Of a stretch of DNA of 64,000 nucleotides, positions 42,963 to 53,338 are shown one piece after another. The DNA is from an uncultured Alphaproteobacteria bacterium (GTDB taxonomy: Bacteria; Pseudomonadota; Alphaproteobacteria; HIMB59; GCA-002718135). Position numbers and translations under genes: made by a program. The stretch lies in NCBI GenBank assembly GCA_902512325.1, contig CABXIT010000002.1, positions 5,009-69,008 on the forward strand. The letters are read 5' to 3'. The number at the start of each line of letters is the position of its first letter. Position 1 is the first letter of the stretch. The notes under the pieces are model-generated. The model saw nothing but the letters and a program-made list of their open reading frames with translations. It was not told the DNA's origin and did not search any database.

Positions 42963-43654
42963 TAAACAAAAAAAAAATTAATCAATTCGAGGAAATTATT
43001 TCCTATAGTTTTAAAAATAAGCAACTTTTAGAAAATGCTTTAGTGCACCCAAGTTATATTGCTGAAAATAAAAAAAAATTAGTTAAGGAAATTAGTGATT
43101 TTGAAAGATTAGAGTTTTTAGGAGATAGAGTCTTAGGCTTGGCAATATCTTCAATAATTTATAAAAAATTTAATAAAAATAATGAAGGAGATTTATCAAA
43201 AAAACTTTCATATTTGGTTCAAAAAAACTTTTTGCATAAAATCTCTGTAAATCTTAAAATTGATAGATTTCTTAAATTTTCATCAAAAAAAAATAATAAA
43301 ATGAATATTTCAATTTTAGCTGACTCTATAGAGTCATTGATTGGCGCTTTATATTTAGATGGAGGTTTTATAAGTGCAAAAAAATTTATACACTCTACTT
43401 GGGGACCTTATTTAAATATTGAAGATAAAAATATGCAGGATCCAAAAACTAAGTTACAAGAACTTTCTCAACAAAAATTAAAAAAATTACCTGAATATAA
43501 TTTAATTAAAAAAGAAGGGCCTTCACACTCACCTACTTTTACAATATCATTAAAAGTATTAAACTTAAAAAAAATAATAAGCAGTGGCTCTACAATTAGA
43601 GATGCTGAGAAAAATGCTGCATCTATTGTTTTAAAACTAATTAATGAAAAGTAA
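42959..43654 (+). CDS. rnc: ribonuclease III
   Basis: 231 aa with the signature ERLEFLGD and a C-terminal dsRBD. Confidence 0.92.
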   Translation: MINKKKINQFEEIISYSFKNKQLLENALVHPSYIAENKKKLVKEISDFERLEFLGDRVLGLAISSIIYKKFNKNNEGDLSKKLSYLVQKNFLHKISVNLKIDRFLKFSSKKNNKMNISILADSIESLIGALYLDGGFISAKKFIHSTWGPYLNIEDKNMQDPKTKLQELSQQKLKKLPEYNLIKKEGPSHSPTFTISLKVLNLKKIISSGSTIRDAEKNAASIVLKLINEK

Positions 43655-44486
43655 GATACTTAAAATTAGTATTGTTGGAAGAACGAATGCTGGAAAATCC
43701 ACTTTAATTAATAAAATTGTAGGTGAAAAAATATCAATTCAAAATAAAAAAATAAATACTACTCAGGAAACAATAATTGGAGTTAAAAATATCAAAAATA
43801 TACAACTACTTTTTTATGATACTCCCGGTTCTAATTTTATAAAAAATTCTAGTAATCAGGTAAAAATACTAAAAAAAAATTTATGGCATGGTATTGATGA
43901 GTCAGATTTAATTTTATATTTGATTGACTCACATACCATAAATATGAGTTTTCTGTATGATCAGTTAGGTAAAATTAAAGAGGTTAAAAAAAAAATATTT
44001 ATTATTTTCAATAAAATTGATTTGATATCCAAAAAAAAACTTTTACCAATTATTTCTGAAATTAATAATAAATATAAAATAGAGTCTTTTTTTACATTAT
44101 CGGCCAAAAAAAATATTGGTATTGAAGAACTTTTAACTGAATTAATCCAATATGCATATTCTTCTAAATGGATATATTCTGAGGATGAAATAACTAATAA
44201 AGATGATAAGTTTATTTTAAGTGAATTATTAAGAGAAACAATACTAACATATCTTCATAAAGAAATACCATATAATATTAATATTGTAACTTCCCATTAT
44301 AAAATATTGAAACACTCAGAAGTTAAAATTAAACAAAAAATCTATATTAATGAAAAAAGATATAAAAAAATTATTCTAGGAAAAAATGGCACCATGATTA
44401 AAAAAATAAGAGAGAATTGTCAAAAAAAAATAAAAAAAATTTTTAGAAAAAAAATACATTTATATCTTGAATTAATTAGTCAATGA
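43644..44486 (+). CDS. era: GTPase Era
   Basis: 280 aa with G1 GRTNAGKSTLIN, DTPG, NKID and a C-terminal KH domain. It follows rnc. Confidence 0.9.
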   Translation: MKSKILKISIVGRTNAGKSTLINKIVGEKISIQNKKINTTQETIIGVKNIKNIQLLFYDTPGSNFIKNSSNQVKILKKNLWHGIDESDLILYLIDSHTINMSFLYDQLGKIKEVKKKIFIIFNKIDLISKKKLLPIISEINNKYKIESFFTLSAKKNIGIEELLTELIQYAYSSKWIYSEDEITNKDDKFILSELLRETILTYLHKEIPYNINIVTSHYKILKHSEVKIKQKIYINEKRYKKIILGKNGTMIKKIRENCQKKIKKIFRKKIHLYLELISQ

Positions 44487-45187
44487 CAGAAAATAAAAGC
44501 AGAGGCATTCTATTATATAGCAAACTATCATCAGAAAATAATTTATTTTTAAAATTTTTAACTGAAAATGATGAAATATTAACCGGTATTTGTTTTGGCG
44601 GATCAACAAAGAAGAAAAAAAATATTTATCAGTTAGGATATTTTTTAAATTTAAATATTAAACTTAAAAATTCTAATTTCCCAAATAATATATCTGGAGA
44701 GTTATCCAAACCCTATATTTATGATATCTTTGTAGATAAATATAAATTGCATTCCTTACTATCAATTGTATCTTTATTAAATTTATCTATTATTGAAGGT
44801 CAAAAAATTAGAGGATTATTTGAAAGTACAAATAAAATAATTAATATAATCTCGGCACAAGAAAATTGGTTAGTTGATTATTTTTTATATTTATTAAATT
44901 TATTAAAATTAATAGGATATGAAATTGATTTTGCTAATAAACAATCACTAATTTATCTAAATTTAGATACATTGCAATTTGTTAAGAATAATTCTAATAA
45001 ATCTATTGTTTTTCCACATTATTTACTAAGCAAATTAAAAAAAATGAATTTTGAAGATGTTAATTCTTTTTTTAAAATATTTGAGATAATTTTGCAAAAT
45101 CATCATTTAAATAACATGAATCTTAATATACCTATTAATTATCTAAAGTTTAAAAAACTAATCTTAGGATTTTTGTCAAAAAAATGA
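44483..45187 (+). CDS. recO: DNA repair protein RecO (divergent)
   Basis: 234 aa in the conserved era-recO slot with an OB-fold-like N-terminus. The sequence is highly divergent, so the call rests largely on synteny. Confidence 0.6.
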   Translation: MTENKSRGILLYSKLSSENNLFLKFLTENDEILTGICFGGSTKKKKNIYQLGYFLNLNIKLKNSNFPNNISGELSKPYIYDIFVDKYKLHSLLSIVSLLNLSIIEGQKIRGLFESTNKIINIISAQENWLVDYFLYLLNLLKLIGYEIDFANKQSLIYLNLDTLQFVKNNSNKSIVFPHYLLSKLKKMNFEDVNSFFKIFEIILQNHHLNNMNLNIPINYLKFKKLILGFLSKK

Positions 45188-47376
45188 AAAGTATTATAAA
45201 GGATGATATTAATGAAATTTTAAAGAGTAGATATCTCTCCTATGCAGTATCTACTATTATTTCAAGATCTCTTCCTGATTTAAGAGATGGTTTAAAACCG
45301 GTTCATAGAAGAATAATTTATTCTATGTATTTATTAAAATTATTTAATAATTCACCTTTTAAAAAATCAGCACGAATTGTAGGTGATGTTATGGGGAAGT
45401 TTCATCCTCACGGTGATCAAGCTATATATCAAAGCTTGGTAAGAATGGCTCAGGATTTTTCTACACGAATTACTCTAATAGAGGGACAGGGTAATTTTGG
45501 AAATATTGATGGCGATAATGCTGCTGCTATGAGATATACTGAGGCAAGACTAGAAGATATAACAGAATTATTCTTTGATGGTATAGAGGAAGACTCTACT
45601 ACTTTTAGTGATAATTATGATGGGCAAAATTTAGAACCAGATGTTTTGCCATCCAAGTTACCTAATATTTTGTTAAATGGTTCGACTGGTATTGCAGTTG
45701 GAATGGCAACTAATATTCCTCCTCATAATTTATTAGAAATAAATGACTGTTTAATTAAAATAATACAGCAACCAAATACGTCTGAAAATGAACTTCTTAA
45801 AATAATTAAAGGTCCTGATTTGCCAACTGGAGGAGAAATTATATTAAGTTCTGAAGAAAAGAAAAATATCTATAAGAAAGGTTTTGGTTCTTTTCTTATT
45901 AATTCTAAATGGCATGATGAAAAAATCAAAAATGGTTTGTATGAGGTGGTTATTACTGAAATTCCATTTCAAGTAAACAAGGTGAAAATTATTGAACAGC
46001 TTGCCAATTTAATTAATCAAAAAAAAATACCATTAGATGATGTTGCTGATGAATCAGATGAAAATATAAGAATTGTTCTTAAACCAAAGAATAGAAATAT
46101 AGATAAAAAAAAATTAGTAGATTTATGTTTTAAACTTACTGACTTATCTATCAAATATTCTTGCAATTTTAATGTTCTAGAAAAAGGACGTATACCAAAA
46201 CAATTAGGTTTAAAATCAATACTTTCTCAATTTGTTGATTTTAGAAAAATTACTGTAAAACGTAAATCAAAATTTAATATAAATAAAAATAATCAAAGAT
46301 TAGAAATACTTAAAGGTTATTTAATTGTATTTGCTAATTTAGATAAAATAATAAAAATTATTCGAATCAAAGATGACCCTAAAAAAGAAATGATTAAAGC
46401 TTTTAAAATATCTGAAGTGCAGGCTGAAGCTATTTTAAATATGCGTCTTGGTTCATTAAAAAAATTAGATGAATTAAATATCAATAAAGAAATAAAAAAA
46501 TTAAAAGAAATTAATGCTGATCTTAAAAAACTTATAAACAATGATGATTATTTGAGTAAATTTTTAATTAAACAAATAAAAGAAATAAGTGACTCATTAA
46601 GTGAAAAAATAAAATTACGAAGAAGTAAGATTAATACAGCAGATGATTATGAATTAGATGTTAAAATTGATGAATTCACTGAAATTGAAAAATTTAATGT
46701 TTTGGTTACTAAGGATAATCTTCTTAAAAAAGTAAAAGATTATTCTGAAGATAATAAAGATAAAGATAATAACATTAAGACCTCCATACCTATTTCATCT
46801 AATCACAAACTTCTAATCTTTTTATCCTCTGGTAAAGTTTTAACCTTAGATCCAAATTTACTTCCAGGTGGTAAAGCTTCCCCAAAATCTTACATTGAAC
46901 TTATAAATGTAGGTGTTGATGAAAAATTAATTGCTGTATTTAATGCTAATACGCAAAGAAAATTGCTTCTTATCTCTAAATTTGGAAAAGGTTTTATTTC
47001 AATTTCTGAAAAAATCATTACCAATCAAAGAAAGGGTAAAAATATAATTAATCTTAAAAATAATGATCGGCTAATAAATGTTCATCATTTATATAGTAAT
47101 CACTTAGCTTTAGTATCCAAAAATGAAAAATTACTTATCTTTGAAACATCATCTCTTCCAACTTTAAACAAAGGGGCAGGGGTTCAATTAATGAAAATTA
47201 AGGATAAAGACTTTATTGTTGATAGTTACTTATTTGATCCAAAAGAAGGTCTGTTGTGGCACAAAGGGGCAAAACAAAAAAAATTAAAAGATATTGATTA
47301 TTGGATAGGTAAAAGAGCTCAAGTAGGTAAAAAAATTCCAAGGGGATTTAATAAAAATCTTAAATTTAATAGTTAA
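45184..47376 (+). CDS. parC: DNA topoisomerase IV subunit A
   Basis: 730 aa with RDGLKPVHRRI and AAMRYTEARL (active-site Tyr). Its size and position after recO favour ParC over GyrA. Confidence 0.87.
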   Translation: MKSIIKDDINEILKSRYLSYAVSTIISRSLPDLRDGLKPVHRRIIYSMYLLKLFNNSPFKKSARIVGDVMGKFHPHGDQAIYQSLVRMAQDFSTRITLIEGQGNFGNIDGDNAAAMRYTEARLEDITELFFDGIEEDSTTFSDNYDGQNLEPDVLPSKLPNILLNGSTGIAVGMATNIPPHNLLEINDCLIKIIQQPNTSENELLKIIKGPDLPTGGEIILSSEEKKNIYKKGFGSFLINSKWHDEKIKNGLYEVVITEIPFQVNKVKIIEQLANLINQKKIPLDDVADESDENIRIVLKPKNRNIDKKKLVDLCFKLTDLSIKYSCNFNVLEKGRIPKQLGLKSILSQFVDFRKITVKRKSKFNINKNNQRLEILKGYLIVFANLDKIIKIIRIKDDPKKEMIKAFKISEVQAEAILNMRLGSLKKLDELNINKEIKKLKEINADLKKLINNDDYLSKFLIKQIKEISDSLSEKIKLRRSKINTADDYELDVKIDEFTEIEKFNVLVTKDNLLKKVKDYSEDNKDKDNNIKTSIPISSNHKLLIFLSSGKVLTLDPNLLPGGKASPKSYIELINVGVDEKLIAVFNANTQRKLLLISKFGKGFISISEKIITNQRKGKNIINLKNNDRLINVHHLYSNHLALVSKNEKLLIFETSSLPTLNKGAGVQLMKIKDKDFIVDSYLFDPKEGLLWHKGAKQKKLKDIDYWIGKRAQVGKKIPRGFNKNLKFNS

Positions 47377-47411: not shown

Positions 47412-48524
47412 ATGAAAGATAATTATCTTAACACACAATCAAGTTTAGCAATGAAAGGTGCGGGTTATTATTCTGCAAAAACAGCAGGTGCTAAAAACGC
47501 TATAGATAAAACACAAAAAGTAATTGAGAATGCCCTAGAAACTATCCCATCAACGGAAATACTAAAATTTGCAGATTTTGGCAGTGCCGATGGCGGCACA
47601 AGTCAAGAAATGTGGAACAATATTATCAAATTAATTAGAGAGAAAGGCGACGATAGACAAATTGAAATTTTGTATACCGATTTAGCTTCAAATGATTTTT
47701 CAACTCTTTTTAAAACTATGCAAGGTATGTACAAAAATTCCCAATTTGCATTTCAAAAAAATTTTTCAAATGTCTATGTTCATGGATGTGGTACTGGTTT
47801 TCATCAACAATTAATGGCTAATAATTCATTAACATTAGGTTTTTCTGCAACAGCAATGCATTATGTTTCAGAAAGACCATGTTTAATAGAAAATCATGTT
47901 CATATGACTGGTGCAAATGAAAGTGAAAAAAAATTATTTAAAAATCAAGCACATAAAGATTGGGAAACTATTTTATTAAATAGATCAAAAGAAATGATAA
48001 ATGGAGGACGTTTTATCTGTATTAATTTTGGAATAGATGAACAGGGCAGATGTTTAGGCAATACAGGCGGTCATGTAATGTTTAATAATTTTGCTAAGAA
48101 TTGGAAATATCTTGAAAATCAGGGATTAATCACAAATCAAGAATTTATTAATGCAACTTTCACTCAGCATTATAGGACTGTTGAGGAATTTAAGATGCCA
48201 TTTGATGATAAAGACTCAGTTGTTTCAAAATCAGGTTTAATTCTTAAATCTTGCGAAACAATGATAACAGATTGTCCTTACAAAATGCATTATCTAGCGA
48301 ATAAAGATAATATGTCTTCAGAAGAATATGCAAAAACTCTAATTCCTACAATGCGAAGTTGGTCTGAGACAGTTTTTAAAAATGCATTAATTAATAGAAC
48401 TGAAAAAGAAATTAATGAGATTGTTGATAAATTTTACGATTTATACATCGAGGAAGTATCAAATAATCCAGAAGGCCACGCCATGGACTATGTTCATGTG
48501 ATTATGGATATAGAAAAGATTTAA
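47412..48524 (+). CDS. SAM-dependent methyltransferase of the SABATH (Methyltransf_7, carboxyl methyltransferase) type
   Basis: 370 aa. MKGAGYYSAKTAGAKNAI, FADFGSADGGTS, LYTDLASNDFSTLF and GCGTGFHQQLMANNSLTLGFSATAMHYVS parallel the remembered plant SABATH blocks (MNGGxGxxSYAxNS; ADLGCSSGPNT; LNDLPGNDFNxxF; GSFYxRLFPxxSxHFxHSSYSLHWLS). Confidence 0.7.
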   Translation: MKDNYLNTQSSLAMKGAGYYSAKTAGAKNAIDKTQKVIENALETIPSTEILKFADFGSADGGTSQEMWNNIIKLIREKGDDRQIEILYTDLASNDFSTLFKTMQGMYKNSQFAFQKNFSNVYVHGCGTGFHQQLMANNSLTLGFSATAMHYVSERPCLIENHVHMTGANESEKKLFKNQAHKDWETILLNRSKEMINGGRFICINFGIDEQGRCLGNTGGHVMFNNFAKNWKYLENQGLITNQEFINATFTQHYRTVEEFKMPFDDKDSVVSKSGLILKSCETMITDCPYKMHYLANKDNMSSEEYAKTLIPTMRSWSETVFKNALINRTEKEINEIVDKFYDLYIEEVSNNPEGHAMDYVHVIMDIEKI

Positions 48525-48525
48525 T

Positions 48526-51183
48526 TTAAAAATTAAGAGAAATATCTTTGTGTGTAGAACGACAAGCAGCAACATATATAGCTTGTTCTTTTGTTAATTT
48601 TTCCTGTTGTCTAAGACCAATAGTGGTTTTAATAGAATTATCAAATTTAACTAACTGAGGTAATAATTCTACTTCAGCTTTTTGACGCCATTCTTTTTCT
48701 AATAAGAATATCCCATAAGCTTCATCTATAAGTTTAATTATTTTATTAATATCAGCATCATCTTTTTTTAATGCTCTTCTTGCTTTGGAAAGTTTTTCTT
48801 GAATTAAATCAGCCCCAGCTATTTCATTCAATGCCTTTTCAATAGATTTAATTTCATTCATTCCATCATCTTTTGATACATTAAATATTTTTTCTTTTAA
48901 ATTTTGAATCTCATTATTTAGGTTATTAAGTTTATCTCTATCGATAATAATATTTTTTGTTAATTGAATATTTTCATAAATTGAATCAACATTTCTTCTA
49001 TATAAAGTTATAGCCATTTTATTTTTTAAAGCTAAATCTCTGTATTGATTATTTTCATTTTCCCAGTTAGGAGGAATTTTTTCGCCAATATCTATTTTTT
49101 CTCTATTTAATTTATCTATACGAGATTTAATCTTATCAGCTTTAATTGTTTCATTATCTCTTTCTAGATATTTTTTTTCTTTTTCTAATTTTTTAACTTT
49201 AATATCTATTTTATTTATTTTTTTTTGAATTTTTCTTACAGCTTGGTGCAATGATCTATAATCTATACTATATTCATTTAAATCTAATTTAGTTAATTTA
49301 ATATCTTCTACTAATTCAAAAGTTAAAATGACATTTGTAAAAGTATTTTCTAATAATTCTTTATTTTCTGTAGGCAAATAATTAAGATTAAGAGTGGTTA
49401 AATTATCAATATTGGCTTTAATTATACTTCCATTATTTTCATATAATTCAAATTTATATTCTTGAAGACAGTCTTGTAATCTAGGATTCATCGGAGGAGG
49501 AGATACTTCCGAAGTTAAGTAAGTTCTATATGGCAAATAGTTAACTAAAGAAGGGAAATAACCAACTATTCCTAACCCAAATAGTTGAAGAACTATAAAA
49601 GCTATCGCTCCTCTCCATATTTGAATAGTGGAAACAGTCTTAGGGGCTACTCCTCTTAAATAAAATAGAGAAAATCCAAATGGTGGAGTTAAAAATGACG
49701 TTTGCATATTTACACCTATCATAACGCCTAACCAAACTGCCGTTACGTTTGCATCAGTTTGTGCAAGCAGAATAGGAGCAATGATTGGCACTACAACAAC
49801 AGCTATTTCTATAAAATCAAGGAAGAAACCAAGAATAAAAATTACCGCCATAACTACGAAGAATTGAGTCCAAAAACCTCCAGGTAAACTTGTTAAAAAT
49901 TCAGTAACTAACTCTTCCCCACCAAATCCTCTAAAAGCAGCAGTTAACATAGCTGCACCAACTAGAATAATAAATACCATGGAAGTTGTTACACATGTTT
50001 CTAAAGCTACCCCTTTTAATGTATTATCAATTATTAGAGTTCTGTAAAAACTCCAGAATACAGAAATTGTTAAAGCAAAAACTGCTAAACTGGCTAAAGT
50101 AATTCCAATAACATCATTATAACTAGTTATATCTTTGACTCTCAAATCAAAATTACTCATAAGAAAATAAATTGCCACTAAAGAAAGAACAGCAATTATT
50201 GAAGGTGTGTATGCATGTTTTTTACCTTCATAAAGTCTATATCCGCCCATCATTGTGGCTCCTACAGCTCCAATCGCTCCTGCTTGATTTACAGTTGCTA
50301 TACCTAATATAATTGATCCTAAAACAATAAAAATTAAAGTTAATGGAGGTACTAAAGATAAAAAAACTTTTTTAGTAAAATCTAAATCGTATTTACCATC
50401 ATAAGGCACTGGTGGTGCTACACTAGGTTTAATTCTTGCATAAATTAAAACGTACAACATATATAAACCCACGAGAACTAAACCAGGTAAAAATGCTCCA
50501 AGAAACATATCTCCAGCACTTGTAGAAGATACAGAATATGATCCAGGCATGCTAAACTCACCTGTAAATAATTTATATTCCGCTTGTCTAGCAGTGTTAG
50601 CAACATCTGAGGCACTTGCTAATTGATCTGCAAGTATGATTAACACTATTGAAGGGGGGATAATTTGACCTAATGTTCCCGATGAGCACACTATTCCGCT
50701 TGCAAGTGACTTATCATAATTATTTCTTAACATTGCAGGAAGGGAAATTAAGCCCATAGCAACTACAGTTGCCCCAACAATACCTGTTGTTGCAGCAAGT
50801 AAAGCTCCTACAAATATAACAGAAGTACCAAGTCCTCCGGGAATAGGACCAAAAAGTTGCCCCATTGTAACTAATAAATCTTCAGCTATTTTTGATCTTT
50901 GAAGCATGATACCCATAAAAATAAACAAAGGTATTGCTATCAAAGTGTCTCTTTCAACTTCCCAATAAACAGCTCTAAAATTAGTTATACCTGCTGATAA
51001 CCATTGTATAGGACCATCTTGATGAAAATATTCACTTGGATTATTTGCAAATAAATAGCCAGCTAAAGCAGCCATTAAAATAGTAAGAACAGCCGAACCT
51101 GGAAGAGAAAAGGCAACTGGAAAGCCTGATCCAAGTGCTATAATCATTGTTAAAATGAGAATTAATAAAAATACAGTTTCCAT
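48526..51183 (-). CDS. dctM: TRAP transporter large permease (DctM family) fused to ~330-aa coiled-coil-rich C-terminal domain
   Basis: 885 aa. Residues ~1-555 are polytopic with DctM-like blocks (GFPVAFSL..., IPLFIFMG, GTLGQIIPPS, TPPFGFSLFYL). Residues ~556-885 are hydrophilic and K/E/N/I-rich with heptad-like stretches. Confidence 0.8.
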   Translation of the reverse strand: METVFLLILILTMIIALGSGFPVAFSLPGSAVLTILMAALAGYLFANNPSEYFHQDGPIQWLSAGITNFRAVYWEVERDTLIAIPLFIFMGIMLQRSKIAEDLLVTMGQLFGPIPGGLGTSVIFVGALLAATTGIVGATVVAMGLISLPAMLRNNYDKSLASGIVCSSGTLGQIIPPSIVLIILADQLASASDVANTARQAEYKLFTGEFSMPGSYSVSSTSAGDMFLGAFLPGLVLVGLYMLYVLIYARIKPSVAPPVPYDGKYDLDFTKKVFLSLVPPLTLIFIVLGSIILGIATVNQAGAIGAVGATMMGGYRLYEGKKHAYTPSIIAVLSLVAIYFLMSNFDLRVKDITSYNDVIGITLASLAVFALTISVFWSFYRTLIIDNTLKGVALETCVTTSMVFIILVGAAMLTAAFRGFGGEELVTEFLTSLPGGFWTQFFVVMAVIFILGFFLDFIEIAVVVVPIIAPILLAQTDANVTAVWLGVMIGVNMQTSFLTPPFGFSLFYLRGVAPKTVSTIQIWRGAIAFIVLQLFGLGIVGYFPSLVNYLPYRTYLTSEVSPPPMNPRLQDCLQEYKFELYENNGSIIKANIDNLTTLNLNYLPTENKELLENTFTNVILTFELVEDIKLTKLDLNEYSIDYRSLHQAVRKIQKKINKIDIKVKKLEKEKKYLERDNETIKADKIKSRIDKLNREKIDIGEKIPPNWENENNQYRDLALKNKMAITLYRRNVDSIYENIQLTKNIIIDRDKLNNLNNEIQNLKEKIFNVSKDDGMNEIKSIEKALNEIAGADLIQEKLSKARRALKKDDADINKIIKLIDEAYGIFLLEKEWRQKAEVELLPQLVKFDNSIKTTIGLRQQEKLTKEQAIYVAACRSTHKDISLNF

Positions 51184-52160
51184 TAATTTGATTTAGCTTT
51201 CAAAAGTTTAGAAGAATTACTCATAAAAAAGCTAGTAAACGTAATTAGCATTGTTAAAGCATAAATAGCAAGAAACCCTGCCATTAAATATTTAACCTGC
51301 ATCCCATAACCGCTCATAGATTGTTCAAAAGTTTTAATTGGAGCATTTAATATACATTGTTGGCACCACATTCCTCTAAGTAAAATTGTTGCACAAATTG
51401 GAATGCCCAGTAATAACGAACCTAAAAGATTTGACCACGCTTTTCCTCTTTCAGAAAAATTAGTATAGAGAATGTCAACTCTTACATGTCCTTCTTTTAA
51501 TAAAGCATAGGAACTAGCAAATAAAAAAAGAGATCCGTACCAAAATCTCACAAGATCACCCATAAAAGTTTGTTCATAAGAAAATATAAAACGTGCTACT
51601 ACAATTTGAAATTCAGCTATGACAACTAAAAAAGCTAGCCAAAAAAAACCAAGAGTTTTGGTAAAATAACCAATAATAAAAGCTAATATAATCAAAGGGA
51701 AATGAATATAAGTACCTCTAAAAACTGATTTACCCAAATTCATTCCTAAATTTTCTCCAAATAAAGGAATTAAAAAATCTTCAACTCTTAAAAAGGATAG
51801 AATCATATCGACTAATCCTACAATTAAAACACTCCAAAAACATGATCTGATAATATAAGCGGAAAAATTACTTAAGTATTCAGAATCTTTATTTATTTCA
51901 ACTTGATTATATAATTTAACATAAATGAATGAAATTAATATTGCGATTAAATAAATTAAAAACTGTATCCATGATTTATAAAATTCATTGGAGCTAAGTT
52001 CTTTATTATTTTCAAAAAAAAAATTATAACTTCCGAAAAATTTATCAACTCCTGGATAATCATACCAATGATTTAGTACATTATTAATTAAAAAAGCAAA
52101 TGTAAGAAAGATTATGGACCAACTAAATATTCTTATTGGATTATTTAATTTTTCAATCAT
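51183..52160 (-). CDS. dctQ: TRAP transporter small permease (DctQ-like) with ~150-aa N-terminal extension
   Basis: 325 aa. The C-terminal ~170 aa resemble DctQ (LLKEGHVRVDILY). It lies between dctP and dctM and overlaps dctM by 1 nt. Confidence 0.6.
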   Translation of the reverse strand: MIEKLNNPIRIFSWSIIFLTFAFLINNVLNHWYDYPGVDKFFGSYNFFFENNKELSSNEFYKSWIQFLIYLIAILISFIYVKLYNQVEINKDSEYLSNFSAYIIRSCFWSVLIVGLVDMILSFLRVEDFLIPLFGENLGMNLGKSVFRGTYIHFPLIILAFIIGYFTKTLGFFWLAFLVVIAEFQIVVARFIFSYEQTFMGDLVRFWYGSLFLFASSYALLKEGHVRVDILYTNFSERGKAWSNLLGSLLLGIPICATILLRGMWCQQCILNAPIKTFEQSMSGYGMQVKYLMAGFLAIYALTMLITFTSFFMSNSSKLLKAKSN

Positions 52161-52192
52161 AAATAATGAAAATTTTTACTTACTATAATAAT

Positions 52193-52221
52193 AAAAAAGC
52201 GGAGATTAACTCCGCTTTTTA
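52193..52221 (-). terminator. rho-independent terminator/attenuator between dctP and dctQ
   Basis: A hairpin GCGGAG-attaa-CTCCGC (52199-52215) is flanked by A6 and T5 runs. Read on the minus strand, the stem is followed by a U-run 8 nt after the dctP stop. Confidence 0.6.
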
Positions 52222-52228
52222 TTAAGAA

Positions 52229-53338
52229 TTAAACTCCCAGAGCTCTATTTCTTTGTTTTAAATAAGCTCCATCAGATAGTTTCATCCAAGCTCCAATTTC
52301 AGCACGAGCATTAACAAAACTTTCGTGGGTTCTATTAGCAAGATCGCTGTGTTCAACAACTTCTGCATACACTTCCTCAGAAGCTTCTGCAAAAGCATCG
52401 TAAACATCATCATTGAATTCCTTTAATACAACCCCTTGTTCATCAATAAGTTTTTTAAGCGATGAACCATTATTTGCATTATACTCTGACATCATGATAT
52501 CATTTTCACAAGTAGCAGCAGCCTCAATCAATGCTTGATCAGATGCTGATAAACTTGTTAACCAAGATTTGTTACATCCTGCTGCAAGCATGGAAGCTGG
52601 CTCATGCATTCCTGGATAATAATAGTATTTAGCTGCTTCATAAAATTTCATAAAAGCATCATTCCATGGACCAACCCATTCAGTAGCATCAATTGCTCCT
52701 GAGACAAGATTTTCATAAATTTGTCCACCTGGAAGTGATACTGGAGATGCTCCCAATTTAGCGATTACATCACCACCTAGTCCAGGCATACGCATTTTAA
52801 GTCCCTTAAAATCACTAGCTGAATTAATTTCTTTATTGAACCAACCACCCATTTGAACTCCTGTGTTACCACACATAAAGTTTTTAAGGCCGTATCCATC
52901 AGCAAGTTCATCCCAAAGTTCTTGACCTCCTGCAAATCTAATCCAAGCATTCATTTCTGAATAACTGAAACCAAATGGAACTGCAGTGAAATAAGCCCAA
53001 GCTGGATGTTTACCTTTCCAGTAATAATCAGCTGCGTGATACATTTGCGCATTTCCTGATGCAACTTCATCAAATGAATCAAAAGCACCTACACGTTCAC
53101 CAGCAGCAAAATATTCTACATTAAAGCGACCATCACTCAATGTACTTAATCTTTCTGCAAATCTTTGTGCGCCAGTTCCTAAGCCTGGAAAATCTCTACC
53201 CCAAGTTGCAACCATTGCTATATCTATTCTATCAGCAGCAATTGCTGGAGCAGGAAAAGCTGAAACAGCCGCAACCGCTCCACCTGCTATTCCGGCTTTT
53301 TTTAAAAAGTCACGACGTTTTACATTTTTTTTATTCAT
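52229..53338 (-). CDS. dctP: TRAP transporter substrate-binding protein (DctP family, Tat-exported)
   Basis: 369 aa with a twin-arginine signal KRRDFLKKAGIAGGAVAAVSAFPAPAIA|AD and a strong SD GGGAGGA 3 nt before the ATG. The mature part resembles the mannitol/chloroaromatic (TakP-like) DctP subgroup, from memory. Confidence 0.87.
   Translation of the reverse strand: MNKKNVKRRDFLKKAGIAGGAVAAVSAFPAPAIAADRIDIAMVATWGRDFPGLGTGAQRFAERLSTLSDGRFNVEYFAAGERVGAFDSFDEVASGNAQMYHAADYYWKGKHPAWAYFTAVPFGFSYSEMNAWIRFAGGQELWDELADGYGLKNFMCGNTGVQMGGWFNKEINSASDFKGLKMRMPGLGGDVIAKLGASPVSLPGGQIYENLVSGAIDATEWVGPWNDAFMKFYEAAKYYYYPGMHEPASMLAAGCNKSWLTSLSASDQALIEAAATCENDIMMSEYNANNGSSLKKLIDEQGVVLKEFNDDVYDAFAEASEEVYAEVVEHSDLANRTHESFVNARAEIGAWMKLSDGAYLKQRNRALGV

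What the first reader, a model, noticed from the sequence alone, without database searches (positions are those of the whole stretch)
48526..49515. TRAP large permease fused to a ~330-residue coiled-coil-rich soluble domain
The DctM-type membrane domain ends around ...GYFPSLVNYLPYRTYLTSEVSPPP. The same frame then continues for about 330 more codons without a stop, which is very unlikely by chance in AT-rich, stop-prone DNA. The extension is hydrophilic, K/E/N/I/L-rich, with long heptad-like stretches (RKIQKKINKIDIKVKKLEKEKKYLERDNETIKADKIKSRIDKLNREKI...; LNNLNNEIQNLKEKIF...). It has one Cys near each end (LQDCLQEY ... YVAACRSTH). I know of no TRAP DctM subunit with such an appendage. If the C-terminus of DctM is periplasmic, as current SiaQM structures suggest to me, this would be a periplasmic stalk or scaffold that might tether or organise the highly abundant DctP. 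If cytoplasmic, it might couple transport to a partner enzyme or the cytoskeleton.
Basis: partly seen in the sequence, partly recalled or inferred. Interest (0 to 1): 0.65.

Follow-up and report, generated by a model that had tools for sequence, protein, structure and literature searches.

The report
TRAP permease with periplasmic helical appendage
The large membrane subunit of a nutrient-uptake (TRAP) transporter carries a conserved, folded 330-residue helical domain of unknown function on its periplasmic end. This marks a widespread but undescribed transporter subfamily in marine bacteria.

Summary
Window 48526..51183 (-) is one 885-aa gene: a DctM core (residues 1-555) followed in frame by a 329-residue hydrophilic domain (557-885).

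- **Real gene, not an artefact.** More than 100 protein clusters of 883-895 aa, 119 genomes and 53 of 54 informative metagenome loci keep the fusion. dN/dS on the domain is about 0.2.
- **Folded and new.** AlphaFold gives a confident all-helical fold (pLDDT 94, pTM 0.86) around a 71-residue helix. Pfam, NCBIfam, the PDB (sequence and Foldseek) and BFVD give no match, and I found no description in the literature I could search.
- **Periplasmic.** It starts where the solved SiaM structure (N-out/C-out) ends. Its only two cysteines are essentially invariant, and the single exception has lost both, which points to a disulfide.
- **Part of a subfamily.** It always co-occurs with an enlarged DctQ (about 150 extra N-terminal residues) and a tight group of TakP-like (alpha-keto-acid type) binding proteins. 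TakP-like systems with ordinary Q/M lack it.

The function is inferred only. The most likely role is a fixed periplasmic platform that handles the binding protein. Rivals are scaffold bracing or oligomerisation, sensing, and envelope tethering. I rate it a new variant of a known kind, interest about 0.6.

The parts
48526..51183 (-). Complete gene for the long TRAP M subunit (885 aa): DctM core plus C-terminal appendage, ending in a TAA stop at 48526..48528
   Evidence: ORF. Pfam DctM 222 bits. More than 100 clusters of 883-895 aa at 59-93% identity.
49519..51183 (-). DctM membrane core, residues 1-555
   Evidence: Aligns to PpSiaM 7qha_B up to chain residue 420 of 427. It is 40% identical over residues 1-552 to the 515-aa appendage-less M of a Phaeobacter plasmid.
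50050..50244 (-). 65-residue insertion (residues 314-378) relative to SiaM, containing two extra hydrophobic helices (329-347, 358-376). An even number keeps the C-out topology.
   Evidence: Gap in the alignment to 7qha_B between chain residues 250 and 253. Hydropathy peaks 2.0 and 2.4. Helices 326-344 and 355-384 in the full-length model, at low confidence.
49468..49518 (-). Linker and invariant entry motif L-TSEVS-PPP-x-NP-x-LQ-x-C (residues 556-572), including Cys572 (49468..49470)
   Evidence: P562, P563, P564, N566, P567 and C572 are 99-100% conserved in 111 genome sequences. C572 was not part of the search pattern. The independent set shows the same.
48529..49515 (-). Periplasmic all-helical appendage, residues 557-885
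   Evidence: AF2 pLDDT 94.4, pTM 0.86, eight main helices. 511 cluster representatives with E<=1e-3. dN/dS 0.19-0.24. No Pfam, NCBIfam, PDB or BFVD relative.
49159..49371 (-). Central 71-residue helix H2 (residues 605-675, about 105 Å if straight). H3 and H4 run back along it antiparallel.
   Evidence: DSSP of the AF2 model. DCA pairs 655-698, 660-696, 667-693 and 621-731 have a constant i+j of about 1352-1360. Conserved Y642, H646 and R650 lie at its middle.
48604..48618 (-). Invariant loop motif G856-x-R858-x-Q860
   Evidence: 83/83, 82/83 and 81/83 in the homology-retrieved set A2.
48529..48564 (-). Invariant C-terminal tail C874-x3-H878-x-D880-x-S882-L883-x-F885-COOH. Every family member ends exactly at this Phe.
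   Evidence: C 82/83, H 80/83, D 78/83, S 80/83, L 83/83, F 82/83 in set A2. Mean conservation 0.81, the highest of any segment.
51183..52160 (-). Enlarged DctQ (325 aa). The canonical DctQ domain is residues 186-309, preceded by a conserved hydrophobic N-terminal extension of about 150 residues. Its TAA stop overlaps the M start codon by one base (TAATG).
   Evidence: Pfam DctQ at 186-309 only. Residues 183-260 align to residues 35-112 of a 171-aa Q. The extension is conserved (A5). It co-occurs with the M appendage in both directions. Junction.
52229..53338 (-). TakP-like DctP solute-binding protein (369 aa) with a twin-arginine signal
   Evidence: Pfam DctP and TIGR01409 TAT signal. PDB 5cm6, 4pet, 2hzk (TakP) and 7ug8 at E 1e-65 to 1e-73. 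TakP Arg177 and Tyr100 are conserved, and the alignment runs into the swapped-helix region.

Best explanation
SHOWN. This is the M subunit of a distinct, vertically conserved TRAP transporter subfamily, which I call 'long-Q/long-M'. It has three parts:
(i) a TakP-like, probably alpha-keto-acid or organic-acid binding protein exported by Tat;
(ii) a DctQ with a conserved membrane extension of about 150 residues at its N-terminus;
(iii) a DctM with two extra TM helices and a 329-residue C-terminal domain.

The C-terminal domain lies in the periplasm. It is a folded, elongated all-alpha bundle built around a 71-residue helix. Its first and last helices are probably stapled by a C572-C874 disulfide. 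Constraint is concentrated at the two chain ends (PPPxNPxLQxC and GxRxQ...CxxxHxDxSLxF-COOH) and at mid-helix sites, while the helical arms drift and take indels only at turns.

INFERRED. Together with the extended Q, the domain forms a permanent periplasmic superstructure on the QM complex that takes part in handling the binding protein. It may dock, orient or retain the (probably dimeric) TakP-like SBP next to the translocation site, raising delivery efficiency at the very low substrate concentrations of seawater. It is not catalytic.

The confidence given is for the whole statement including the inferred function. For the architecture and location alone I would give about 0.9.
For: - **Single gene.** One stop-free frame. 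The fusion is kept in every genome locus with enough upstream DNA among 119 GTDB species, in more than 100 clusters of 883-895 aa, and in 53 of 54 informative loci reached independently through the Q extension. dN/dS is 0.19-0.24.
- **Periplasmic.** SiaM is N-out/C-out (PMC9971032). The alignment to 7qha_B ends at residue 552. The insertion has two hydrophobic helices. There are exactly two Cys in 111/111 and 82/83 domains, and the one exception has lost both. A DCA contact L569-A872 lies next to the Cys pair.
- **Folded and unknown.** pLDDT 94.4, pTM 0.86. No hit in Pfam or NCBIfam, in PDB sequences, or by Foldseek against PDB or BFVD.
- **Subfamily link to the SBP.** SBPs of these systems are 55-77% identical to each other across phyla, but only 37-49% identical to TakP and to SBPs paired with ordinary Q/M.
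- **Room for contact.** In docked TakP dimers the second protomer points away from the membrane (10.1101/2021.12.03.471092). Gonin et al. proposed that the TakP dimer stays bound at the membrane complex (PMC1839085).
- **Length is held.** The 5th-95th percentile range is 324-334 aa, while sequence identity falls to 26%.
Against: - No direct evidence of any contact between the domain and the SBP. Multimer modelling was not available.
- The full-length model was too poor (pLDDT 64.8, pTM 0.51) to place the domain relative to the core.
- TakP-like SBPs at 44% identity work with a 171-aa Q and a 515-aa M that lacks the domain. None of 72,556 plasmids carries the domain although 167 carry TakP-like SBPs. 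SBP dimerisation therefore cannot be the sole reason for it.
- Net charge of the domain ranges from -22 to +15 with no consistent complementarity to the acidic SBPs.
- The domain evolves 2-3 times faster than the core and the SBP, which is unusual for a tight, specific interface except at the conserved ends.
- The disulfide is inferred from covariation, not observed.
Confidence: 0.45

Rival explanations
1. Scaffold brace or oligomerisation module. The extra Q helices and the periplasmic bundle enlarge and stiffen the static scaffold against which the elevator (transport) domain moves, or they hold two or more QM complexes together through helix-helix contacts. There is no specific contact with the SBP.
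For: - The Q extension and the M appendage co-occur strictly in both directions, as expected if they form one structural unit.
- In TRAPs, Q substitutes for the second protomer's scaffold of dimeric elevator transporters, and HiSiaQM self-associates (PMC9971032; PMC10942642).
- Long amphipathic helices with variable surfaces and conserved attachment points fit a structural strut.
- The appendage attaches directly after the last scaffold-side TM.
Against: - Ordinary TRAPs, including the 40%-identical Phaeobacter M, need no such brace.
- Coevolution signals are intramolecular hairpin registers, with no sign of a homo-oligomeric interface (noisy).
- The invariant free C-terminal tail and the GxRxQ loop look more like a binding site than a strut.
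Confidence: 0.25
2. Periplasmic sensor or regulatory domain. The helical bundle binds a small molecule or ion (for example at the conserved H646/R650/R858/Q860/H878/D880 cluster) and gates transport allosterically, like the four-helix-bundle sensor domains of chemoreceptors and kinases.
For: The conserved polar residues (His, Asp, Arg, Gln) appear to cluster near the chain termini and mid-H2. Among the non-significant Foldseek hits are a chemoreceptor ligand-sensing domain (8f7n) and other helical sensors.
Against: - No significant sequence or fold similarity to any sensor family.
- There is no output domain, and a secondary transporter regulated by its own periplasmic sensor has no precedent known to me (own knowledge).
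- Foldseek TM-scores are at most 0.26.
Confidence: 0.1
3. Envelope tether or spacer. The helical hairpin of about 100 Å reaches across the periplasm to peptidoglycan or an outer-membrane protein, as the alpha-hairpins of membrane-fusion proteins do. This would position the importer under an outer-membrane entry point or keep space open for SBP traffic.
For: The 71-residue helix with an antiparallel return resembles adaptor hairpins in size. Domain length is tightly conserved. There is a very weak NCBIfam match to the EmrA adaptor (E 0.95).
Against: - The EmrA match is at noise level, and no peptidoglycan-binding or adaptor domains were found.
- The hairpin tips are the least conserved, indel-prone parts, the opposite of what a specific distal contact predicts.
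- DCA suggests the chain termini sit near the middle of the long helix, which fits a beam better than an upright stalk (tentative).
Confidence: 0.08
4. The extension is cytoplasmic and couples transport to a cytoplasmic partner.
For: The domain is rich in Lys.
Against: - Canonical M is C-out, and the extra insertion adds an even number of helices.
- An invariant, covarying Cys pair is typical of oxidising compartments.
- Net charge is not consistently positive.
Confidence: 0.02
5. Artefact: two genes joined by a sequencing or assembly error, or a non-coding open frame.
For: One close relative (L001) has an in-frame TGA in place of Arg510. L069 and L195 have frameshifts.
Against: - Thirteen clusters at 92-93% identity are all exactly 885 aa, and more than 100 further full-length clusters exist.
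- The fusion is universal in 119 genomes.
- The L001 change is a single base inside the last-TM region of the core, not at the junction, and the downstream frame stays under purifying selection (dN/dS 0.24).
- The 321-aa 'stand-alone' calls are contig-edge truncations.
Confidence: 0.01

Closest known systems
SiaQM sialic-acid TRAP transporters (PpSiaQM 7qha/8b01; HiSiaQM 7qe5, 8thi)
   Same: Homologous DctM elevator-type core, with E 4e-17 to 7e-16 and alignment through the last TM. It is a tripartite P-Q-M system with Q and M genes translationally coupled, and M is N-out/C-out.
   Different: SiaM ends about 7 residues after the last TM. Here 330 more residues follow. The core has two extra TM helices, Q has about 150 extra N-terminal residues, and the SBP belongs to the TakP group rather than SiaP.
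TakPQM alpha-keto-acid TRAP system of Rhodobacter sphaeroides (TakP, PDB 2hzk/2hzl)
   Same: The SBP is a clear TakP homologue (E 4e-70). Arg177 and Tyr100 are conserved and the C-terminal helix region is present. It is probably a dimeric organic-acid binder.
   Different: SBPs of long-Q/long-M systems form their own group, 55-77% identical to each other against 37-41% to TakP. I could not check whether R. sphaeroides TakM carries the appendage. The ligand here is unknown.
Phaeobacter inhibens pDOK1-1-2 TRAP (SBP WP_076621016.1, Q WP_076620635.1 at 171 aa, M WP_076620633.1 at 515 aa)
   Same: Nearest appendage-less relative examined. M is 40% identical over residues 1-552 and the SBP is 44% identical.
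   Different: M stops right after the last TM (...WLPYALR), Q is of normal size, and no appendage is present anywhere on the plasmid.
ABC importers with substrate-binding domains fused to the membrane subunit (for example OpuA, GlnPQ)
   Same: An analogy only, for the proposed function: a permanent periplasmic or extracellular addition to the translocator that keeps substrate capture next to the pore (discussed in PMC1839085).
   Different: In those systems the fused module is the SBP itself. Here the appendage is an unrelated helical bundle and the SBP remains a separate, Tat-exported protein. No homology.
Alpha-helical hairpins of periplasmic adaptor (membrane-fusion) proteins and ClyA/YaxB/XaxA-type helical bundles
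   Same: Elongated antiparallel helical hairpins of similar length. These are among the top (non-significant) Foldseek hits.
   Different: E >= 0.3 and TM <= 0.26, with no sequence similarity above noise. This is a resemblance of shape only.

Membership tests
TRAP transporter large permease, DctM (Pfam PF06808 / TIGR00786) | Match to the DctM profile above the curated threshold | tested here: met
   PF06808 scores 222 bits against a cut-off of 23.8. TIGR00786 scores 264.5 bits, just under its 268.45 subfamily cut-off, consistent with a divergent subfamily.
TRAP transporter large permease, DctM (Pfam PF06808 / TIGR00786) | Encoded with DctQ and DctP partners in one operon | tested here: met
   P (52229..53338), Q (51183..52160) and M (48526..51183) lie on the same strand with a Q/M start-stop overlap. 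The same P-Q-M order occurs in the genome loci.
TRAP transporter large permease, DctM (Pfam PF06808 / TIGR00786) | Full-length homology to a solved M subunit, including the last TM (C-out) | tested here: met
   Three collinear segments cover 7qha_B residues 47-420 of 427.
TRAP transporter large permease, DctM (Pfam PF06808 / TIGR00786) | Na+-coupled, SBP-dependent transport activity | not testable with these tools
   Needs reconstitution or uptake assays.
TakP-type (alpha-keto-acid) TRAP systems | SBP homologous to TakP and retaining the carboxylate-binding Arg177 and Tyr100 | tested here: met
   E 4e-70 to 2hzk. 'GLKMR' and 'YYW' align with TakP R177 and Y100.
TakP-type (alpha-keto-acid) TRAP systems | C-terminal swapped helix that makes the SBP a dimer | tested here: inconclusive
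   The alignment runs to TakP residue 350 of 365, inside the 326-365 helix (PMC1839085). The dimer itself was not tested.
TakP-type (alpha-keto-acid) TRAP systems | Binds alpha-keto acids | not testable with these tools
   Needs a ligand screen. SBPs of this subfamily are only 37-41% identical to TakP.
Any described periplasmic helical or coiled-coil domain family (Pfam/NCBIfam models; adaptor hairpins, 4HB/HBM sensors, ClyA-like) | Significant profile or fold match for residues 557-885 | tested here: not met
   - Pfam: best hit 16 bits against a 33-bit cut-off, and no family matched by more than 6 of 22 members.
- NCBIfam: nothing near its cut-offs.
- PDB profile search: only coiled-coil noise.
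- Foldseek: best E 0.31 against PDB and 0.066 against BFVD, TM <= 0.26.
'Long-Q/long-M' TRAP subfamily (defined here) | M ends with PPPxNPxLQxC ... GxRxQ ... CxxxHxDxSLxF-COOH, and Q carries the conserved N-terminal extension | tested here: met
   All motifs are present in the window protein. The Q extension aligns with A5. The two co-occur.

The most novel reading that the evidence does not exclude
The appendage plus the extended Q form a permanent periplasmic cradle that keeps a TakP-like SBP dimer bound to the transporter. That would make it a 'captive-SBP' TRAP, as Gonin et al. speculated for TakP. In this reading the invariant, flexible C-terminal ...H-x-D-x-S-L-x-Phe-COO- tail acts as a latch or pseudo-substrate, its free carboxylate and aromatic side chain mimicking an organic acid, and it occupies the SBP cleft or the translocation site between cycles. 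This would be a new coupling mechanism for SBP-dependent secondary transporters.
Probability: 0.12. Interest if true: 0.85.

Novelty: new variant of a known kind. Interest (0 to 1): 0.6.

Why it matters
TRAP transporters are major nutrient importers of marine heterotrophs, and their SBPs are among the most abundant proteins in ocean metaproteomes. All current mechanistic models come from SiaPQM-type systems, which have bare periplasmic faces.

This subfamily adds about 480 conserved residues: a folded periplasmic domain on M and extra membrane helices on Q. It is present in Pelagibacteraceae, Rhodobacterales, Roseibium, SAR116, several Gammaproteobacteria and Desulfofustis. That implies an additional, undescribed layer in how the binding protein and translocator are coupled or organised.

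It also bears on an open question, namely how dimeric TakP-type SBPs engage QM. The domain has no database model, so defining it would improve annotation of hundreds of 'DctM' entries. Cultured carriers (Loktanella salsilacus DSM 16199, Roseibium suaedae DSM 22153, Sedimentitalea arenosa) make it directly testable.

Tried and rejected
- **Two genes or frameshift.** Rejected. The 321-aa calls (P0001, P0002) start 8-54 nt from contig edges. L001 has a single AGA>TGA change inside the core, while 13 clusters at 92-93% identity are intact.
- **Automatic back-translation of the domain alignment for the genome scan.** This failed because no stretch was conserved enough. I replaced it with a hand-made degenerate pattern of the C-terminal signature. 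The invariance of those pattern residues in that set is therefore circular, so I re-checked it on the homology-retrieved set.
- **Full-length AF2 model to place the domain on the core.** Unusable: pLDDT is below 50 for residues 1-305 and pTM is 0.51.
- **First DCA run.** Dominated by gap artefacts. The filtered run gives register-consistent hairpins, but Meff is about 170, so individual pairs are unreliable, and the invariant Cys pair cannot score.
- **TakP-type dimeric SBP as a sufficient explanation.** Rejected by plasmid-borne TakP-like systems with normal Q/M.
- **Apparent appendage-less partner in L146.** It is an unrelated upstream paralogue at 33% identity.
- **Electrostatic complementarity between domain and SBP.** No consistent pattern.
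- **Conserved neighbours as a substrate clue.** Nothing is universal.
- **Hemagglutinin HA2 and myosin hits of the profile against the PDB.** Treated as coiled-coil composition noise.
Full report
**1. The observation**

Window 48526..51183 (-) is a single 885-codon ORF. It sits downstream of a 325-aa DctQ (51183..52160) and a 369-aa Tat-signal DctP (52229..53338) on the same strand. The Q stop overlaps the M start (TAATG).

Pfam recognises DctM only in the N-terminal part (222 bits). Alignment to the solved PpSiaM chain 7qha_B runs in three collinear blocks and ends at query residue 552, which is chain residue 420 of 427.

The frame then continues for residues 557-885 (nt 48529..49515). At the local composition, 330 open codons have a probability of about 4e-16, and the other five frames contain 13-61 stops. 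The segment has no hydrophobic stretch, is rich in K/L/I/N/E, and has exactly two cysteines.

**2. Is it one gene?**

Searching with the extension alone found 50 clusters and 511 representatives at 50% identity (328 with E<=1e-10). Nearly all align up to their own C-terminus.

Three 321-aa hits at 85-88% identity looked like stand-alone genes. Two of them start 8-54 nt from a contig edge. The third, L001, has a single AGA>TGA substitution at Arg510, inside the last-TM region of the core rather than at the junction, with the frame otherwise continuous.

Against that one contig:
- 13 clusters at 92-93% identity are all exactly 885 aa, and more than 100 further clusters are 883-895 aa.
- L002, a GC-rich 94-kb contig, has an intact 843-aa fusion whose gene call was shortened only by a run of N.
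In every locus with enough upstream DNA, the domain is in the same stop-free frame as the DctM core (884-934 aa stop to stop). The only break is a frameshift in L069.
- dN/dS of the extension against three relatives is 0.19-0.24.

It is a real, selected, single gene.

**3. What the domain is**

No Pfam or NCBIfam model matches the window sequence or any of 22 diverse members. There are only scattered sub-threshold coiled-coil hits. A profile search of PDB sequences gives only coiled-coil noise beyond the TM overhang.

AlphaFold2 with an 83-sequence alignment gives a very confident all-helical model: pLDDT 94.4, pTM 0.86. The helices, in full-protein numbering, are 567-596, 605-675 (71 residues), 679-700, 707-747, 749-786 (broken), 792-806, 812-851 and 865-875. 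Foldseek finds nothing significant in the PDB (best E 0.31, TM <= 0.26) or BFVD (best E 0.066).

I could not read the coordinates, so I ran a mean-field DCA. After removing gappy columns (Meff about 170, so it is noisy), it shows register-consistent antiparallel pairings:
- H2/H3 and H2/H4 pair with i+j of about 1352-1360.
- H5/H7 pair with i+j of about 1600.
- There is an H1/H2 contact, 592-618.
- There is an H1-H8 contact, L569-A872, right beside the two cysteines.

The domain is thus a folded bundle of intramolecular hairpins rather than a classical intermolecular coiled coil.

**4. Conservation pattern**

- **Rate.** The domain evolves 2-3 times faster than the core. For example, core versus domain identity is 0.77 vs 0.43 for P0256 and 0.57 vs 0.26 for P0125.
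- **Length.** The 5th-95th percentile range is 324-334 aa. Indels occur only at three turn or loop hot-spots: 673-684, 766-772 and 807-811.
- **Where constraint falls.** It is strongest at the entry linker PPPxNPxLQxC572 (0.80), the G856xRxQ860 loop (0.71), helix 8 (0.63) and the terminal C874xxxHxDxSLxF885 (0.81). Secondary peaks lie at mid-H2 (Y642, H646, R650), P704/W707, mid-H4 (Y728, D733, Y736) and W832/R833.
- **C-terminus.** Every member ends exactly at the Phe.

The C-terminal motif was part of my DNA pattern, so I verified it on the homology-retrieved set: G 83/83, R 82/83, Q 81/83, C 82/83, H 80/83, D 78/83, S 80/83, L 83/83, F 82/83.

**5. Location**

The solved M subunit is N-out/C-out with 12 TMs (PMC9971032). 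Relative to it, this core has a 33-residue loop insertion and a 65-residue insertion (residues 314-378). The latter contains two strong hydrophobic segments, which is an even number, so the C-terminus stays periplasmic.

Independently, C572, which was not in the search pattern, is present in 111 of 111 genome-derived domains, and every domain has exactly two Cys. In the independent set, 82 of 83 have exactly two, and the single exception (P0082) has lost both (C>S and C>D). That covariation is what a structural disulfide predicts, and it fits an oxidising compartment. I consider the periplasmic location about 90% secure. The disulfide itself is an inference.

**6. Context: a distinct subfamily**

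- **The SBP.** Its best solved relatives are the TakP group (5cm6, 4pet, 2hzk/2hzl, 7ug8 'ketoacid-binding protein'; E 1e-65 to 1e-73). TakP's Arg177 and Tyr100 are conserved, and the alignment extends into the helix that is domain-swapped in the TakP dimer (PMC1839085).
- **The Q subunit.** It is twice the normal size. Only residues 186-309 match DctQ, and residues 183-260 align to residues 35-112 of a normal 171-aa Q. The extra N-terminal region of about 150 residues is hydrophobic and well conserved, with invariant R10, P36, F108, G115, D118, E127, H153 and P155.
- **Co-occurrence, from M to Q.** In the genome loci, long Q and P always precede long M.
- **Co-occurrence, from Q to M.** I used the Q extension as an independent probe of metagenome contigs and recovered 80 loci. 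Of these, 48 have the core plus a complete appendage in one ORF, 5 have partial appendages running off the contig, 25 are uninformative, one has a frameshift in the core (L195), and one apparent exception (L146) is an unrelated upstream paralogue. So 53 of 54 informative loci carry the appendage.
- **SBP grouping.** SBPs of these systems are 55-77% identical to one another across Alpha-, Gammaproteobacteria and Desulfobacterota, but only 37-49% identical to TakP and to SBPs paired with ordinary Q/M.
- **Negative control.** None of 72,556 plasmids encodes the domain, although 167 encode TakP-like SBPs. In Phaeobacter pDOK1-1-2 the 44%-identical SBP is paired with a 171-aa Q and a 515-aa M that is 40% identical over residues 1-552 and stops right after the last TM.

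The appendage is therefore a trait of one orthologous 'long-Q/long-M' lineage, not of TakP-type systems in general.

**7. Distribution and annotation**

Carriers include:
- Pelagibacteraceae single-cell genomes and 'MarineAlpha5' MAGs. The MarineAlpha5 MAGs are the closest named relatives among the GTDB species representatives scanned, at 48-50% identity in the domain.
- Loktanella, Sedimentitalea, Lentibacter, Roseibium and Hoeflea.
- Kiloniellaceae and Puniceispirillaceae.
- Granulosicoccus, Leucothrix and Oceanospirillaceae.
- Desulfofustis.

GenBank entries such as PPR49771.1 (85% identical overall to the window protein, from an 'Alphaproteobacteria bacterium' MAG) are named simply 'C4-dicarboxylate TRAP transporter large permease protein DctM'. 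Five full-text searches and the key TRAP structure, TakP and SAR11-TRAP papers yielded no description of the appendage or of the long Q. Subscription-only literature was not searchable, so prior mention cannot be excluded.

**8. How it most likely works**

Shown:
- It is a periplasmic, folded, probably disulfide-stapled helical domain, fixed to the C-out end of M.
- It co-inherits strictly with extra Q helices and a specific SBP lineage.
- Its conserved residues concentrate where the chain leaves and re-approaches its start.

Inferred: it forms, with long Q, a permanent periplasmic superstructure that participates in SBP handling (docking, orientation or retention). Two points from the literature are compatible with this. 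In the AlphaFold tripartite model, a docked TakP dimer has its second protomer pointing away from the membrane. Gonin et al. proposed a membrane-resident TakP dimer.

I give this functional reading about 0.35-0.45. Rivals are:
- a scaffold brace or oligomerisation module (0.25);
- a sensor or regulatory bundle (0.1);
- an envelope tether or spacer (0.08);
- a cytoplasmic location (0.02);
- an artefact (0.01).

Points against the favoured reading:
- There is no direct interface evidence.
- The full-length model was unusable.
- The helical arms evolve fast.
- There is no charge complementarity.
- Related TakP-like systems manage without the domain.

DCA tentatively places the chain termini near the middle of the 71-residue helix. 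That would make the long helix a beam with two arms rather than an upright stalk. This needs the coordinates or an experimental structure.

**9. Verdict**

This is a genuine, widespread, previously unremarked architectural variant of TRAP transporters with an uncharacterised periplasmic domain. Its 'tether for DctP' idea remains a reasonable but untested hypothesis.

Noticed in passing
window 51183..52160 (-): DctQ is 325 aa, about twice the normal size. A conserved hydrophobic N-terminal extension of about 150 residues (3-4 extra TM segments; invariant R10, P36, F108, G115, D118, E127, H153, P155) precedes the canonical DctQ domain. It co-occurs strictly with the M appendage. There is no detectable internal duplication (N half against C half by BLASTP gives nothing).
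   Followed up: partly
window 52161..52228 (between dctP and dctQ, minus strand): A GC-rich stem-loop (GCGGAG-TTAAT-CTCCGC) followed by a T-run lies directly after the dctP stop. It looks like an intrinsic terminator or attenuator, which would give excess SBP transcript relative to Q/M. This was read from the sequence only, and the promoter/terminator scan was not run.
   Followed up: no
window 47412..48524 (+); L022, L055, L068, L015, L001, L003, L004: A SABATH-type SAM-dependent carboxyl methyltransferase (Pfam Methyltransf_7, 121 bits) abuts the M gene tail to tail, with the two stop codons separated by a single base. The same family lies immediately downstream of M on the same strand in three distant lineages (Chromatiales, Gammaproteobacteria, Pseudomonadota; 41-47% identity), and convergently in AT-rich alphaproteobacteria. 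This may be a functional link to the transported carboxylate.
   Followed up: partly
L001 525..527 (equivalent to window codon Arg510, about 49654..49656): A close relative (85-86% identity in the appendage) has AGA>TGA in frame within the last-TM region of DctM. The rest of the frame is intact and under purifying selection. This could be a sequencing error, a recent pseudogene or a population variant.
   Followed up: partly
window 50050..50244 (-) and about 50533..50631 (-): The DctM core is 555 aa, against 427 in PpSiaM. It has a 65-residue insertion with two extra hydrophobic helices (residues 314-378) and a loop insertion of about 33 residues (residues 185-217). The TIGR00786 score falls just below its subfamily cut-off (264.5 against 268.45).
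   Followed up: partly
window 43644..47376 (+) and loci such as L045, L088: The TRAP operon lies next to era-recO-parC here. parC, recO and era neighbours recur in 12, 8 and 5 other loci respectively, across lineages, which suggests old, vertically kept synteny. Other recurrent neighbours are an AMP-dependent ligase (16 loci), a PanE-like 2-dehydropantoate reductase (14) and an MFS transporter (13). The family names for these clusters are my reading of the representative sequences; they were not scanned against Pfam.
   Followed up: partly
L146 1..771: A second, appendage-less DctM paralogue (33% identical to the core) ends just upstream of the long-type P-Q-M operon, so the two TRAP systems are in tandem.
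   Followed up: yes
P0047, P0050, P0180, P0187 (database proteins): Some database entries join fragments of the appendage to unrelated sequence: a short-chain dehydrogenase, a protein with Pfam PF02511, or GC-rich out-of-frame tails. These are probably chimeric contigs or frameshifts rather than alternative architectures.
   Followed up: partly
window 44000..45250 and 48750..49500: GC content is extremely low (19-22%) in several genes, including the appendage, against 31-37% in the membrane core and the SBP gene. The soluble, fast-evolving parts appear to have drifted furthest toward AT.
   Followed up: no
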